Under the pieces are notes generated by a model. That model saw only the letters and a list, made by a program, of their open reading frames with translations, did not search any database and was not told the origin of the DNA. Source: a virus. From it: DNA of 64,000 bases. Position 1 is the first letter of the stretch; the number at the start of each line of letters is the position of its first letter. Location of the stretch: the IMG/VR virus record IMGVR_UViG_3300025096_000010, positions 2,823 to 66,822 of that record; one strand, written 5' to 3'. A program made the position numbers and the translations under genes. Positions 24,227 to 51,969 of this stretch are shown one piece after another.

Positions 24227-37573
<13,347 letters not shown>

Positions 37574-46405: not shown

Positions 46406-46620
46406 CGGTCTTGAGTCTGCGTAAACGCATGGGTTAGTGAGTTAATCCCTACTTGAGGGGGTCGGACACCACGTTTGGTTATGCCAGCCTCCCCTAACGG
46501 GTGGCTGCAATCATCTGTAGTATTGAGCAAGTCTGTGACCTTGCGAAGGTGGAGTGGGGGCTTGGCTCGATCATTGAGATCGGCCTCTACCAAGGCCCGC
46601 GTTTCAGGTGACATACTCAT
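46402..46620 (-). CDS. hypothetical protein
   Basis: 72 aa, coupled. Confidence 0.45.
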   Translation of the reverse strand: MSMSPETRALVEADLNDRAKPPLHLRKVTDLLNTTDDCSHPLGEAGITKRGVRPPQVGINSLTHAFTQTQDR

Positions 46621-46623
46621 GCT

Positions 46624-46794
46624 CTACCTGTTGGCTATACGTTTGGTGAGACGGGCGCGCTCTTTCTTAGCGCCCCTGTTCTTACCGTTAATCTTATCCA
46701 GCATCTTGAGCTGGGCTCCATCGGTCCGCTTGGCACGGGCCGCTTGTCTCTGTGTCGCACGCTCTTGGCGTGCTATCTTCATTTGCTTTCTCAT
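46624..46794 (-). CDS. small basic phage protein (56 aa)
   Basis: MRKQMKIARQERATQRQAARAKRTDGAQLKMLDKINGKNRGAKKERARLTKRIANR; below ORF-track cutoff. Confidence 0.55.
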   Translation of the reverse strand: MRKQMKIARQERATQRQAARAKRTDGAQLKMLDKINGKNRGAKKERARLTKRIANR

Positions 46795-46809
46795 AAGAAT
46801 GGAAAGGGG

Positions 46810-47820
46810 TTGGTTCCGGCAGGGTTAGTAGCCACATCAAAGATGTTTGACCACTTGAATGCGTGCTGAAAGTAGGGTTACCGCCCCGCCATGTGTATCC
46901 AGAGCGTCCTCTGTTGAGTGGTGTTGGTAACTTCACCGGCATCGGTGGGTGTCTTAGGTTTACCCTCGACCCAGCAGTTCCGGTTCCTGATTACTACGCC
47001 ACGGTGTCGATACACACGGCGGGATAAGCCATATGTTTCCATTCGTCCGATACCTACAGGTCGGGTGGAATGACTCACGGCAGTGCATGGTGGGGACCCG
47101 AAGGCATCTGCCGCCTTTGCGGGGCGGACTGCCCACCTCTTGCTTACCTATCCTCACAGGGTGAAGGCACACTCCACCATGAGGGCTGTTGCAAAGTAAT
47201 GTGCTCCCCCTTTGATGCGGGTTAGTTTTACGTGGCCTATATTGACTGCACGGCGGAGGCGGGGAGCCTTCCTCAAAGCATCGTTGTTTCGTCTGGCCTG
47301 AGCTTCATCAGCCAGTGTTGGTATTATCCCCCAACTGGGTTCCCCATCCAGTAACGTGCCATAACAGGGGTACCCCAGACCTCAGACCCACCTACGAGGG
47401 CGGGTAACGTAGAGGTCTGGATCTTTCGGCGTTCGCAGGCAGCAAGCTCAAACATGGCAAGCCGCCAGAAAGTGCAGGGCCTTTTAACCTCATGCCCTAG
47501 GAGGGTGACGGTATTTGTAACTGCCCCTTGCCCACCGCTACCAATGTAGCTTGAGTGGATCGGACAAGCAACGCACACCTTATGGTGCACCACGGTGCCG
47601 CCGCCGTGTTACCCCGCCGTCGTTCGGGGTAAAGGGTAGCCCTCTCTCCAGTTTCATTACCGTCAGGCAGTTAGCAAGTGATCAAGCCAGAGCTTTTACC
47701 TACATGGCTCGATGGCCAGCGGTTGACCTACATCTCTTGCAGTCGGGATCTCTATGAGAGCCGACCATGAAACGTGCAGAGGAGATGCCGGTGGAACGGT
47801 ATGGAGAGAGGGCAAAGGGT
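46810..47820 (-). ncRNA. candidate large structured non-coding RNA (~1 kb)
   Basis: No credible CDS; dense nested stems with G-U pairs and a GNRA loop favouring the minus strand. Confidence 0.5.
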
Positions 47821-47929
47821 AAAGCTTTTGGTGGCCAAAAGTGGTAAAAAAACGAAGATTTGGCCACTAATAAATTCTAGGAATCAGGAATCAATAGTGT
47901 GTGTCCCACCACTTGGAGAACACTATGGA

Positions 47930-48214
47930 TCAGGCACGGAGGTAGTTATACAGGAAGTCCTGCACATCAGCGCGTTCGGGGTAGGTCAGTGGGCTCCTGT
48001 GCATAAGCCACAGGTATACCCCCGCTCTGCGGGGCTTCTTCTCTTCGTAGAACAACTCAAGAGCCTCATCACAAAGAGCACGGGTCTCGATGTAGCGGGT
48101 ACGTATAGCTACCCAATGATGTGAGTGTGCGTGGGGCACATCTTCACTGGGTGAAGCGTCAAGTTGACGGAGCATCTCGCGCTCGGTGTCGTTAACTATA
48201 TCAATCAGTTTCAT
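47930..48214 (-). CDS. hypothetical protein
   Basis: 94 aa. Confidence 0.5.
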   Translation of the reverse strand: MKLIDIVNDTEREMLRQLDASPSEDVPHAHSHHWVAIRTRYIETRALCDEALELFYEEKKPRRAGVYLWLMHRSPLTYPERADVQDFLYNYLRA

Positions 48215-48240
48215 TCAGTTCATTCAGTTTCATTCAGTTT
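48201..48240. repeat. tandem 9-10 nt repeat (CATTCAGTTT-like, x4)
   Basis: tcaatcagtt tcattcagtt cattcagttt cattcagttt. Confidence 0.8.
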
Positions 48241-48486
48241 CTCGGCAAACGAGCGCACCTCTCGGGCCGCTCCTCTACCTATGAGTTCCCGTCGTAAGGC
48301 ATAGGTATTACCCTGTGCCCCTATGATAATGGGCTCATCCGGCCAGTTGGATGGCACGGTGAGGGAGGTGATCTCCACTGTCCCTGTTGCCCTGATGTGG
48401 GTATCAAACAGGGAGGCGGCGAGCTGCGCCGCAAGCCCACCCCTTTGCAGGATGAGGCTACGGGCTGCGGTTATGTCTAGGTTCAT
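48220..48486 (-). CDS. hypothetical protein
   Basis: Start at ATG 48486, ATGA overlap. Confidence 0.5.
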   Translation of the reverse strand: MNLDITAARSLILQRGGLAAQLAASLFDTHIRATGTVEITSLTVPSNWPDEPIIIGAQGNTYALRRELIGRGAAREVRSFAEKLNETE

Positions 48487-48779
48487 GGGTTCAGGGGATA
48501 CCAGCTCCGCTTGTATCGGGCTACCCGCCCGATTCCCGTGCCGCACATGACCATCCGCCGCCAACAGTGGCGGCGATAGCGCCCACAGAGTGGGTCCTCT
48601 GAGGGTTGGGACGGTGCCTTTGCGGGGGCAAAGGCTTCAGGGTGCCTGCTCAACCATTCCACCATCACATCATCAACGATAATGCGTGTATAGGTGGTAT
48701 TGTCCCCGTTGTCGCAGATGACACGGGGGGTCGGGCGCTTGAGGGCGGAAGCCGCGCGCAGCTTGGTTATAGTTCTCAT
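48483..48779 (-). CDS. hypothetical protein
   Basis: Start at ATG 48779, ATGA overlap. Confidence 0.45.
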   Translation of the reverse strand: MRTITKLRAASALKRPTPRVICDNGDNTTYTRIIVDDVMVEWLSRHPEAFAPAKAPSQPSEDPLCGRYRRHCWRRMVMCGTGIGRVARYKRSWYPLNP

Positions 48780-48997
48780 GGGTTCAGTGGATAATTGCGT
48801 TTGAGGTGGTATCGGTCCTCCGCTCTGGCCTGTAGTATAGAGCAGGCTACTGAGGTGACAATACCTGACAGGGCAACCGAAGCTGGCAACAGCTCGACCC
48901 CCTTGGCGTAGTAGTCTACGCCGATTTTGATTACACCTGCAAAGAACAGGGCAATCCCAAGGCCCGTGAGGGCTCGGTATATTAGTATATGTCTCAT
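48776..48997 (-). CDS. small two-TM membrane protein
   Basis: Two hydrophobic helices. Confidence 0.55.
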   Translation of the reverse strand: MRHILIYRALTGLGIALFFAGVIKIGVDYYAKGVELLPASVALSGIVTSVACSILQARAEDRYHLKRNYPLNP

Positions 48998-49009
48998 GAT
49001 AGATAGGAA

Positions 49010-49262
49010 AGGGGGGTGTGAGAGTGAGTACGGGCTTGCATCCGGTTTTACTTCGGGTGCGGGCGGGCCTTTGCGGGGCTAGCGGCACACGATTCTACTC
49101 ATTCACTACTAAGGGAGATCAATCCCGTTTCGCTCCCGTCTTACGGTCCACGCCTTTCGGTTAGCGGATACCGGCTTACGGCTCTCGAAAGTCTGGGCTT
49201 ACTTCCCGTGGTTGCCCACCCACGCTTTCTTTATAGAGGGACAGTGCTACTGCCATCCTCTC
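49010..49262 (-). ncRNA. candidate structured RNA (~250 nt)
   Basis: Intergenic; multiple stems capped by GCAA/GAAA loops on the minus strand. Confidence 0.5.
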
Positions 49263-49267
49263 CCACC

Positions 49268-49534
49268 TTACTCGGTGAGGTGTGGGTTGGCCCTGTATAG
49301 GGCTTCCCACACAGATTGATCCACCGCGTGTTCCACGGGGTCACGGTTCAGGATACGGGATGCAGATGCACCCGCAAGGTGGTCACTAAAGTCCACCTTA
49401 GGTGGACTAAACGCGGGTTGGTTACCGCGTGCTTGCCATTGGCGACCGAGACGTCTGCGCTCTTGGCGCATTATCCGGTCGGGTTTGCAGATTCTCTTGG
49501 CGCTCTGCACTGACGCCCTATGGTTCTTACTCAT
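49268..49534 (-). CDS. hypothetical protein
   Basis: 88 aa, basic N-terminus. Confidence 0.45.
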   Translation of the reverse strand: MSKNHRASVQSAKRICKPDRIMRQERRRLGRQWQARGNQPAFSPPKVDFSDHLAGASASRILNRDPVEHAVDQSVWEALYRANPHLTE

Positions 49535-49622
49535 AACTTGTGACCCATACCCTCAGGCGAACCGGAGGGCAGGGGTCACAAGCGGGGTGGTTACCCATCC
49601 CGCAAGGACACACTTGTTGAGG

Positions 49623-50042
49623 TTACTTGGTTTCCGTGCGATCAATCGCAGTTCCCCACGTCGCAATCTGTCCGCCGAGGGAGAACGCGAAGGTCTTCAC
49701 GTTTACACCCGCGGCCTTGAACCGATCCCGAAGGCCGAGGAACAGTCCAACCTCTTCCGAGGTTGGTCCATTGGGGCCGAACGACTTGGGGTCGAACTTG
49801 TTCATGTCCACGGACATGTATTGATCTTCTCCGAGCTTCCACTCGGTCTTGACCAAGCCCAAGAGCTTGGCCGTTTCCATGAGGAGGGCATTACCAGCGG
49901 ACTGGAACTTCTTCCTGACGGCTTGACGCTTCTTCTTAGCCTCGCCCCGTCCGGGTTTCACCTCATCGGCGGCATCGAGAACCTCATTGAGGGACTCAAT
50001 CTTATCTTTTGGCTCCACAAGGGGAGCATTCTTATTAGCCAT
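49623..50042 (-). CDS. hypothetical early protein (139 aa)
   Basis: Start placed at ATG 50042 (MANKNAPL); codon choice skewed to C/G-ending codons. Confidence 0.6.
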   Translation of the reverse strand: MANKNAPLVEPKDKIESLNEVLDAADEVKPGRGEAKKKRQAVRKKFQSAGNALLMETAKLLGLVKTEWKLGEDQYMSVDMNKFDPKSFGPNGPTSEEVGLFLGLRDRFKAAGVNVKTFAFSLGGQIATWGTAIDRTETK

Positions 50043-50292
50043 ATGCTTGGTTGAGCGAAGGGTTATGTCCTTGCACTCACTCGCACCTCTCCATGCTCGG
50101 ATACAGGGTTCCGGTTCAGGGAGGGGGCGAGTGAGTGCAGGGACTGCTAGGGCTTGGCGGTTTTGCCAAGGTTGCACCTAGCAGCCCTGCACTCAACAAG
50201 TGTTAAAGTCTGATTCTAGAGTCTCCATCCGCGCGCTCCGCTAGAGGTGAGTGGCGTTCCCACTTTGCGAGGATCGGGTTGTCATGCCGAGC

Positions 50293-51893: not shown

Positions 51894-51969
51894 TGGCAGG
51901 ACAGGCGAGACTCGAACTCACAACCCTCGGTTTTGGAGACCGATGCTCTACCAATTGAGCTACTGTCCA
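51894..51969 (-). tRNA. trnW: tRNA-Trp (CCA)
   Basis: 76-nt cloverleaf TGGACAGTAGCTCAATTGGTAGAGC..CTCCAAA..GTTCGAGTC..CTGTCCTGCCA with encoded CCA end. Confidence 0.95.

What the first reader, a model, noticed from the sequence alone, without database searches (positions are those of the whole stretch)
46795..47929. ~1.1 kb ORF-poor, densely base-paired tract: candidate novel large phage ncRNA
Seen: in an otherwise gene-packed genome this gap has only weak short ORFs but many stems. A 12-bp stem (47639-50 with 47802-13) encloses GTTTCAT/ATGAAAC and three sub-hairpins. Others: TTACCCCG/CGGGGTAA (47609-32); CCAGACCTC/GAGGTCTGG (47375-47420) with an inner 7-bp stem; CATGGTGG/CCACCATG (47086-47181) enclosing a GCAA-capped hairpin; CATTC..CCGA/TCGG..GAATG (47040-72); and terminal stems that need G-U pairs on the minus strand. 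I could not find group I/II intron, RNase P or tmRNA hallmarks. Known: phages carry large RNAs such as GOLLD and ROOL. Inference: a new large RNA, or an array of RNAs, in the early transcript. This is the strongest candidate here for an undescribed system.
Basis: partly seen in the sequence, partly recalled or inferred. Interest (0 to 1): 0.8.

Follow-up and report, generated by a model that had tools for sequence, protein, structure and literature searches.

The report
Candidate large structured phage RNA
A protein-free stretch of about 1.1 kb in an uncultured phage genome behaves like a modular, folded RNA of no described family, but only four closely related copies could be compared, so the case is suggestive rather than proven.

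Summary
The tract (window 46797-47925) is real, single-copy and non-coding. No reading frame is kept across four variants, and their indels are not multiples of three. It matches none of 4227 Rfam families, even at E<=10.

Folding energy alone does not set it apart. Local z-scores over 46800-47600 are ordinary. The whole-tract alignment-fold z lies inside the range of the coding controls. Its sequence identity (84.6%) is about that of third codon positions nearby (81.8%).

The comparative pattern does look like RNA:
- Lineage-specific segments are self-contained stem-loops: 21 segments, mean z -2.43, against -0.37 for 63 matched coding controls.
- Two hairpins keep their place but change their stem sequence.
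- A 209-nt 3' domain folds the same way in each variant and contains a 15-bp helix that changes C-G to U.G to U-A.
- Helices with two or more compensated pairs are in excess (4 against about 1).
- G.U pairs point to the minus strand, the strand of the surrounding genes.

Best reading: a new family of large modular phage RNA, function unknown (about 0.45). Rivals are a cis-acting leader, a DNA-level cassette and a tolerated remnant. No transcript data could be obtained.

The parts
47879..47925 (-). Conserved 47-nt 5' block with a small hairpin. It starts 4 nt after the stop codon of the upstream ORF and is kept even where the upstream genes differ.
   Evidence: 91-100% identical in all variants. 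Single copy in the window at up to 3 mismatches.
47827..47878 (-). Hairpin (9-bp stem) found only in the window's own lineage.
   Evidence: Absent from L008, L007 and L002. z -3.70. It is the only Rfam near-hit: potC, 18.7 bits, E 3.4, far below gathering.
47638..47826 (-). Accessory domain closed by the 12-bp stem 47639-47650/47802-47813.
   Evidence: Present in the window, L008 and L007, absent from L002. In L008 and L007 it is bracketed by a 10-nt direct repeat of which L002 has one copy. z -4.17, -5.00 and -4.42 in the three versions. Single copy in the genome.
47501..47637 (-). 5' core: three hairpins, including a roughly 20-bp imperfect hairpin.
   Evidence: Alignment fold A10 gives 40 pairs. 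In the long hairpin 4 pairs change in L002 and all stay paired, one by a change on both sides. Alignment-fold z -4.5 sense against -0.9 antisense.
47474..47507 (-). Variable segment V1.
   Evidence: 34 nt in the window, 71 nt with two extra hairpins in L002. z +0.51 and -1.38.
47368..47425 (-).
   Evidence: Same position, three versions: a long stem with an inner hairpin (window), the same stem without the inner hairpin (L008, L007), and an unrelated 9-bp stem (L002). z -3.15, -1.96 and -3.15.
47201..47367 (-). Central conserved region, holding the second-longest run identical to L002 (47 nt; the longest, 64 nt, lies in the 5' core).
   Evidence: Of 45 predicted pairs, 1 is compensated and 2 are broken in L002, so structure here is not shown. 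Model R2 finds no copy in 22 other phage records.
47148..47186 (-). Hairpin V4: an outer stem, an internal loop and an inner 6-7-bp stem.
   Evidence: Three different stem sequences form the same shape (window = L002, L008, L007). z -2.99, -3.23 and -3.91. Top hit of the unbiased helix scan, with 4 compensated pairs.
47082..47142 (-). Variable segment V5: one or two hairpins. It includes a hairpin whose loop 12-mer recurs at 48616-48627 and 49067-49078, and a UNCG-class hairpin only in the window's lineage.
   Evidence: z -0.35 to -1.46, so not significant on their own.
46872..47080 (-). 3' multi-branched domain of 209 nt, with 10 helices including a 15-bp helix.
   Evidence: A6/A7: 64 pairs, 96.5% of cells paired, 5 pairs changed on both sides. 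All four variants share the closing stem, the left arm, the 15-bp helix and the small 3' hairpin when folded alone; the inner branch matches in three of them and folds differently in L007. Alignment-fold z -8.6 sense against -3.1 antisense. Model R1 scores 182-245 bits in the variants only.
46797..46879 (-). 3' tail that runs straight into the start codon of the next gene, with no terminator-like site between them.
   Evidence: A 5-bp helix between this tail and the central region changes consistently in three lineages.
46624..46794 (-). Neighbouring gene, not part of the RNA: a 56-aa arginine-rich protein.
   Evidence: 24 protein clusters. 23 IMG/VR loci, of which only the L002 contig has the tract upstream. 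No Pfam, PHROG or PDB match.

Best explanation
The tract is the gene for a large, modular, structured non-coding RNA, about 0.85 kb in the shortest variant and 1.1-1.3 kb in the others. It is read from the minus strand together with the surrounding leftward genes. It has a conserved frame: the 5' block, the 5' core hairpins, the central conserved region and a 209-nt multi-branched 3' domain. On this frame different lineages carry different peripheral stem-loop modules. I infer that the frame is the working part and that the RNA acts as an autonomous folded RNA (a scaffold, a ribonucleoprotein core or an RNA-only assembly) in the manner of the other large phage-borne RNAs of unknown function. 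I infer that it is not a message and not a control element of the next gene. Shown: it is non-coding, it belongs to no known family, it has module-wise variation, and it has some compensatory changes and a strand preference. Inferred: that it is transcribed, processed and stable, and what it does.
For: (1) It is non-coding. No frame is open in all four variants. Mismatches against L002 show no third-position excess in 9 ungapped blocks. In the only half-shared frame the changes fall on second codon positions and L002 has no start codon.
(2) It has no known family. There are 0 Rfam matches at E<=10 in the 881-nt core, only a sub-threshold hairpin hit in 3.1 kb, none in the tract of L002, no tRNA or tmRNA in the tract, and no blastn match in 50,697 phage records.
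(3) The variable and indel segments are stem-loops. Across 21 segments the mean z is -2.43. 20 of 21 are negative and 9 of 21 are at or below -3. For 63 length-matched coding-sense segments the mean is -0.37 and 0 of 63 are at or below -3 (Mann-Whitney p 1.5e-7).
(4) Hairpins V2 and V4 keep their position and shape with unrelated stem sequences.
(5) The 3' domain: folded alone, all four variants share its closing stem, left arm, 15-bp helix and small 3' hairpin, and three of the four also share the inner branch. The 15-bp helix goes from C-G to U.G (L007) to U-A (L002). 5 pairs change on both sides, against 0-2 in slid controls. The covariation score is reached by 3 of 500 shuffles. Alignment-fold z is -8.6, the most extreme of 64 window-strand values, with a control minimum of -5.2.
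(6) In the unbiased scan of alignment A3, helices of at least 5 bp that are compatible in all sequences and have at least 2 compensated pairs number 4. The expectation is 0.43 under column shuffling (maximum 2 in 40) and 1.07 under a null that keeps the places of the variable columns (0 of 200 reach 4).
(7) Strand: the sense z is lower than the antisense z in 16 of 21 segments. The scan gives 4 on the sense strand and 1 on the reverse complement. The strand favoured by G.U pairs is the one the neighbouring genes use.
(8) It behaves as a separate module. Phages that carry the downstream gene without the tract have ordinary ORFs in its place: 22 of 23 loci, including a complete 63-kb relative.
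Against: Single-sequence folding z is ordinary over 46800-47599. The whole-tract alignment-fold z (-5.7 sense) lies within the coding controls (-0.5 to -4.5 sense, -1.9 to -6.2 antisense, which timed out after three control chunks). A test using pairs predicted from the window alone gave no signal: 8 of 18 changed pairs kept on the minus strand against 12 of 20 on the plus strand, with coding controls at 23-67% (the unfiltered version gave 41-48% against 38%). A pairwise window/L002 helix scan is not exceptional: 2 such helices against 0-2 in nine coding chunks. Identity to L002 is 84.6% over 794 aligned columns with 285 gap columns. That is close to the 81.8% at third codon positions of flanking genes, and coding DNA holds longer identical runs (146 nt against 64 nt). 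Purifying selection on the sequence is therefore not shown. Only four distinct variants, 79-92% alike, could be fetched, and three of them are nearly identical over the central 670 columns. The 21 segments are not independent, and I chose their limits from the alignment. Two of the four top helices are alternatives to the other two. The central region has 1 compensated and 2 broken predicted pairs. No promoter-like or terminator-like site bounds the tract. No transcript evidence could be obtained.
Confidence: 0.45

Rival explanations
1. The tract is a structured RNA that acts in cis. It would be an unusually long leader or intercistronic region of the leftward polycistronic message, controlling the stability, processing or translation of the arginine-rich 56-aa gene and the genes after it.
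For: The tail runs into the start codon at 46794 with no terminator-like site between them. A shorter conserved non-coding element at 49009-49195 stands the same way before the 73-aa ORF, ends in a similar 14-mer, and shares an exact 12-mer hairpin loop. All the evidence for RNA structure listed above applies here too.
Against: The downstream gene family does without the tract in 22 of 23 IMG/VR loci. From recall, leaders of 0.85-1.3 kb with swappable 190-nt modules are not a known bacterial or phage pattern. The lack of a Shine-Dalgarno-like site before the gene is not special: only 7 of 50 genes in the window have one.
Confidence: 0.17
2. The tract is tolerated non-coding DNA in a hyperplastic region of small accessory genes. 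It would be a decayed remnant or spacer that drifts nearly neutrally and collects palindromic insertions and deletions by slippage or template switching at short direct repeats.
For: Its identity is close to that of third codon positions. There are many large indels, some bracketed by short direct repeats. Genes on its upstream side are swapped between variants. Most energy-based tests are unremarkable.
Against: All four variants keep 0.85-1.3 kb of it in a compact genome. The indels are stem-loop-shaped far more often than matched controls. Hairpins are replaced in place by other hairpins. Stepwise compensatory changes and the excess of covarying helices favour one strand. No similarity was found to ORFs that occupy the same place in related phages.
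Confidence: 0.2
3. The tract works as DNA. It could be a recombination or regulatory cassette that mediates shuffling of the small genes around it, or an origin of replication or packaging site.
For: The 47-nt 5' block and the element at 49009-49195 stay 90-100% identical while the genes between and beside them are exchanged. Hairpins form on both strands (mean antisense z -1.74).
Against: No iterons or tandem repeats were found, and G+C is 0.555-0.568 in the 400-nt windows from 46800 to 47799, not AT-rich. No repeated promoter-like motif was found: the 5' block is unique in the window and there is 1 sigma-70-like site in 4.6 kb against 2.7 expected. G.U-dependent pairs and the sense/antisense asymmetry point to RNA. 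From recall, 1 kb is far longer than known cassettes of this kind.
Confidence: 0.13
4. The tract hides protein-coding sequence, either small ORFs or a gene read with frameshifts or another genetic code.
For: Gene callers elsewhere have extended the downstream ORF into the tract's tail: six clusters align over their whole length to L002, upstream extension included.
Against: No frame is conserved. Single-base indels lie inside conserved blocks. The two independent assemblies L002 and L012 agree at 99.9%, so these are not sequencing errors. The neighbouring genes read normally under table 11.
Confidence: 0.03

Closest known systems
GOLLD RNA (large phage/prophage-associated ornate RNA)
   Same: It is a large non-coding RNA carried by phage DNA, with a conserved part and a variable part and no known function. 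This description is recalled. The abstract start of PMC12286853, seen in a search listing, says that GOLLD, ROOL and OLE form homo-oligomeric RNA complexes.
   Different: There is no match to any Rfam model, GOLLD's included, at gathering score or at E<=10. There is no sequence similarity to any deposited phage. The tract is known only from one narrow lineage of uncultured phages. Oligomerisation is untested.
ROOL RNA
   Same: It is a large structured RNA, often phage-borne and often near tRNA genes (recalled). A tRNA-Trp lies about 4 kb from the tract.
   Different: No covariance-model match. The size and modular make-up differ.
OLE RNA and its ribonucleoprotein
   Same: It is a large RNA that sits inside an operon and works with small partner proteins. 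The abstract starts of PMC9723947 and PMC12054373, seen in a listing, describe an OLE ribonucleoprotein. Here a small arginine-rich protein gene follows the tract directly.
   Different: No model match. The arginine-rich gene family mostly occurs without the tract, so a partnership is not indicated.
Lambda N leader with nut/boxB sites (recalled)
   Same: A small arginine-rich protein gene is preceded by structured RNA carrying a hairpin whose loop motif recurs further up the same operon (47113-47124 and 49067-49078).
   Different: The tract is 5-10 times longer than such a leader. The third copy of the motif lies inside a coding region. No antitermination function was tested. No similarity of the protein to any family was found.
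Promoter-stem-loop cassettes that shuffle early genes in T4-type phages (recalled)
   Same: Conserved non-coding sequence flanks small genes that are swapped between close relatives.
   Different: From recall, those cassettes are about 100 bp and include a recognisable promoter. Here the tract is 0.85-1.3 kb, has no promoter-like site, and shows RNA-type covariation.

Membership tests
Any Rfam 15 family (4227 models, including GOLLD, ROOL, OLE, HEARO, raiA, RNase P, tmRNA, 6S, group I and II introns and small ribozymes) | Match to the family's covariance model at or near its gathering score | tested here: not met
   Whole window at gathering: only a tRNA at 51897-51969. Window 46500-49600 at E<=10: two sub-threshold hairpin hits, at 18.7 and 16.4 bits. 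Window 46780-47660 at E<=10: 0. L002 2500-6100: one miRNA-like hit outside the tract.
Group I or group II intron | Interrupts a gene whose two exons join into one reading frame | tested here: not met
   The upstream ORF ends in a stop codon 4 nt before the tract and is replaced by unrelated sequence in L002. The downstream ORF has its own start codon in all variants.
Group II intron | Domain V/VI core and, in mobile forms, a reverse-transcriptase ORF | tested here: not met
   No Rfam intron model matches. The tract has no ORF above 89 aa.
tRNA / tmRNA | Cloverleaf, or tRNA-like domain with a tag reading frame | tested here: not met
   ARAGORN finds 0 genes in L002 and only the tRNA-Trp at 51894-51969 in the window.
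Large structured non-coding RNA (generic class) | No conserved reading frame | tested here: met
Large structured non-coding RNA (generic class) | Secondary structure conserved through compensatory change | tested here: inconclusive
   In favour. Neutral or against. Only four variants were available.
Large structured non-coding RNA (generic class) | Made as a discrete, stable transcript | not testable with these tools
Replication origin | AT-rich unwinding region and repeated initiator sites | tested here: not met
   G+C is 0.555-0.568 in the 400-nt windows from 46800 to 47799. There are no iterated repeats beyond scattered 12-15-mers.

The most novel reading that the evidence does not exclude
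This is a previously undescribed class of ornate phage RNA. It has a conserved frame of about 0.75 kb and takes on or sheds whole stem-loop modules of 50-220 nt. It works as an autonomous RNA machine or RNA-only assembly during infection. A second, smaller structured element (49009-49195) in the same operon shares one of its hairpin loops.
Probability: 0.3. Interest if true: 0.8.

Novelty: new member of a known kind. Interest (0 to 1): 0.55.

Why it matters
Few RNAs above 500 nt have conserved architecture and no known function. From recall, each one found so far (GOLLD, ROOL, OLE, raiA) has led to unexpected structural biology. A further class, carried by a phage lineage with no cultured relative (nearest deposited phage proteins below 30% identity), would widen that set. 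Natural variants that add or drop whole modules would also be a ready-made deletion series for structure and function work. If the tract instead proves to be tolerated DNA, it shows that stem-loop counts and ORF poverty alone over-call RNAs in phage accessory regions.

Tried and rejected
Folding-energy route. I ran sliding single-sequence z-scores, alignment-fold z in 160-column windows and the same over the whole tract (which timed out after three of the planned control chunks, so I used the partial output). Only the two ends of the core stand out. The rest is no better than coding controls.

Pair-retention test. Using pairs predicted from the window alone gave no signal. I consider it under-powered (18-20 informative pairs) and dependent on an unreliable 843-nt global fold, but it counts against the structure claim.

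Pairwise helix scan. Against coding chunks it was not exceptional. The control alignment was poor between 45.3 and 46.6 kb.

Long-range helices. The helix from the two-sequence fold (47513-47527 with 47182-47195) is broken in L008 and L007, and its 3' strand is used by hairpin V4, so I dropped it.

Search for more copies:
- blastn of deposited phages found nothing.
- Flanking proteins in IMG/VR gave one contig.
- Four DNA patterns in IMG/VR gave the same contig plus two chance hits, L049 and L050.
- One pattern in metagenome contigs gave 8 loci, of which 6 are real and 2 (L005, L011) are chance matches in coding repeats.
- One pattern in genome contigs gave 2 chance hits (one search gives one of them, L037, only 8.1 bits at E 2).
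- Models R1 and R2 were searched against 21 and 22 other phage records. R1 gave two records with 9-10-bit partial matches at E 0.37-0.85. R2 gave none.
- BLAST against five related records gave a best E of 0.05 on 20-nt matches.

Pseudogene idea. ORFs that occupy the same position in related phages show no tblastn similarity to the tract.

Bacteroidota-type promoter idea. A consensus recalled from memory gave 0 paired sites and 34 single sites against 27 expected, so I dropped it.

Partner-protein idea. The arginine-rich protein has no family, structure or named relative and mostly occurs without the tract.

Literature. Two full-text searches listed no paper describing such an RNA. I saw only listings and abstract starts and opened no paper. 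Supplements were closed and might hold candidate-motif lists that I could not see.

Full report
WHAT AND WHERE. The window is bases 2823-66822 of a 66,822-bp virus record rated 100% complete, and the tract occurs once in it. Genes from about 37.8 to 50.2 kb lie on the minus strand. The tract sits between a 94-aa ORF (47930-48214) and a 56-aa arginine-rich ORF (46624-46794), both on the minus strand. The phage has no close deposited relative. A MoxR-like ATPase 4.6 kb away finds 503 phage records, all below 60% identity and the best below 30%. blastn of the tract finds none.

THE OBSERVATION. The energy claim holds only in part. In 200-nt windows on the minus strand, z is -1.93 to +0.91 from 46800 to 47599, against +2.65 to -3.04 in the coding flanks. 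It reaches -2.4 to -2.6 only at 47600-47899.

KNOWN FAMILIES. Rfam gives nothing: gathering thresholds on the whole window, E<=10 on 3.1 kb, E<=10 on the 881-nt core, and E<=10 on the relative L002. ARAGORN finds no tRNA or tmRNA in the tract.

RELATIVES. One IMG/VR contig carries the tract (L002). A 20-mer scan of metagenome contigs gave six more true loci. Together they make four distinct variants: window = L006, L008 ~ L010, L007 = L009, and L002 ~ L012. These are 79-92% alike. All further scans and two covariance models found no other copy. Public protein sets hold more. Six clusters of the downstream protein carry spurious N-terminal extensions that are translations of the tract's tail. 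Their contigs could not be fetched.

IT IS NOT CODING. No frame is open in all four variants. Single-base indels lie inside conserved blocks, and two independent assemblies agree on them. Mismatches show no third-position excess. In the one half-shared frame the changes are second-position changes and L002 lacks a start codon. ORFs that occupy this position in related phages are unrelated to it.

THE PATTERN OF VARIATION. The four-way alignment shows long invariant blocks broken by discrete segments that are replaced or absent as units:
- A 47-nt 5' block is kept even where the upstream genes differ.
In L008 and L007 it is bracketed by a 10-nt direct repeat.
- L007 has an extra 209-nt insert and L002 an extra 198-nt insert elsewhere.
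- Hairpins V2 and V4 keep their place and shape with different stem sequences.

Folded alone, 20 of 21 such segments have negative z. Their mean is -2.43 and 9 are at or below -3. For 63 length-matched coding-sense segments the mean is -0.37 and none is at or below -3 (p 1.5e-7). The segments are not independent and I set their limits, so the p-value overstates the case. The direction is nevertheless clear.

COVARIATION. The 3' domain (46872-47080) gives the best evidence. Folded alone, all four variants share its closing stem, left arm, 15-bp helix and small 3' hairpin; the inner branch matches in the window, L008 and L002 but folds differently in L007. 96.5% of cells are paired. 5 pairs change on both sides, against 0-2 in slid controls. 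The covariation score is reached by 3 of 500 shuffles, and the count of doubly changed pairs by 14 of 500. A 15-bp helix shows C-G, then U.G, then U-A across the lineages. Its alignment-fold z is -8.6 on the sense strand and -3.1 on the antisense strand.

An unbiased scan of all column pairs finds 4 helices with at least 2 compensated pairs. The expectation is 0.43 under column shuffling and 1.07 under a stricter null (0 of 200 reach 4). The reverse complement gives 1. One of these helices is a 5-bp pairing between the central region and the tail that changes consistently in three lineages.

WHAT SPEAKS AGAINST. The whole-tract alignment-fold z (-5.7) is within the coding controls. Pairs predicted from the window alone are not kept better than in controls. 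The pairwise helix scan is unexceptional. The central conserved region has 1 compensated and 2 broken pairs. Identity to L002 (84.6%, plus 285 gap columns) is about that of third codon positions nearby (81.8%), and coding DNA has longer identical runs, so conservation proves nothing here. No promoter-like or terminator-like site bounds the tract. No read data could be consulted.

CONTEXT. The downstream arginine-rich protein belongs to a family found in 23 IMG/VR loci. Only the L002 contig has the tract upstream, and elsewhere ordinary ORFs stand there. The tract therefore behaves as a module of its own, not as that gene's obligatory leader. The protein has no known family.

READING. The most likely reading is a new family of large, modular, structured phage RNA read from the minus strand (0.45). 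This rests on non-coding status, module-wise hairpin variation, strand-biased compensatory changes and its independence from the neighbouring gene. The rivals are a cis-acting leader (0.17), tolerated DNA in a hyperplastic accessory region (0.20), a DNA-level cassette or origin (0.13), and hidden coding (0.03). It resembles GOLLD and ROOL in kind but is not a member of either. What it does is inference only.

NOVELTY AND SCORE. No Rfam family matches the tract. Two full-text searches (listings and abstract starts only) turned up no paper that describes it. I rate it a new member of a known kind. Interest is 0.55: a specialist would want it followed up, but four shallow variants and no transcript leave it unproven.

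Noticed in passing
window 49009-49195 (minus): A second conserved non-coding element of about 190 nt lies upstream of a 73-aa membrane-like ORF (48776-48997). It is 90-92% identical in all variants. One whole hairpin is absent from L002 and has a different loop in L007 and L010. Variable inserts of 295-445 nt lie between the element and the ORF in L007 and L002. It shares an exact 12-mer hairpin loop with the tract (47113-47124, 49067-49078; a third copy at 48616-48627 is inside a coding region).
   Followed up: partly
window 50000-50260 (minus): A very stable structure (z -6.35, 0 of 200 shuffles as low) with a 13-bp stem, at the head of the leftward gene block. It overlaps the start of the putative 184-aa ORF 49623-50177. 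The stretch 49200-49700 also has z of -3 to -4.6. Neither region is conserved in the other variants.
   Followed up: partly
window 48206-48240: Three to four tandem copies of a unit of about 10 nt lie between ORFs 47930-48214 and 48220-48564, directly upstream of the 94-aa ORF's start (seen).
   Followed up: no
window 48483-48779 and 48776-48997 (minus): Two adjacent small ORFs (98 and 73 aa) end in the same five residues and share an 18-nt repeat at their 3' ends. Each overlaps the next start codon by 4 nt. The listed 201-aa GTG ORF 48483-49088 is probably an over-extension of the 98-aa one.
   Followed up: partly
window 24227-37573 (plus): A 4448-aa ORF with no PHROG family and only a low-complexity Pfam hit. 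I could not confirm that it is an N4-type virion RNA polymerase.
   Followed up: partly
whole window: Only 7 of 50 likely genes have a Shine-Dalgarno-like site. Upstream regions are A/C-rich. This hints at a host with Shine-Dalgarno-independent initiation. A Bacteroidota-type promoter consensus is not enriched.
   Followed up: partly
L002 5080-5275: The 198-nt insert specific to L002 contains a 4-bp stem with a 7-nt loop that reads like a tRNA T-arm (my reading). ARAGORN calls no tRNA there.
   Followed up: partly
window 46624-46794 and loci L013-L035: The 56-aa arginine-rich protein defines a family spread over phage contigs of 12-327 kb (23 IMG/VR loci, 24 protein clusters), with an invariant C-terminal motif and no known function.
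   Followed up: partly
protein P0012: Its N-terminal read-through looks like a translation of the tract's 3' domain joined directly to the gene start. That suggests a further variant lacking about 60 nt of the tail. This is inferred from the protein sequence only, and tblastn aligned only residues 29-89 to L002.
   Followed up: no
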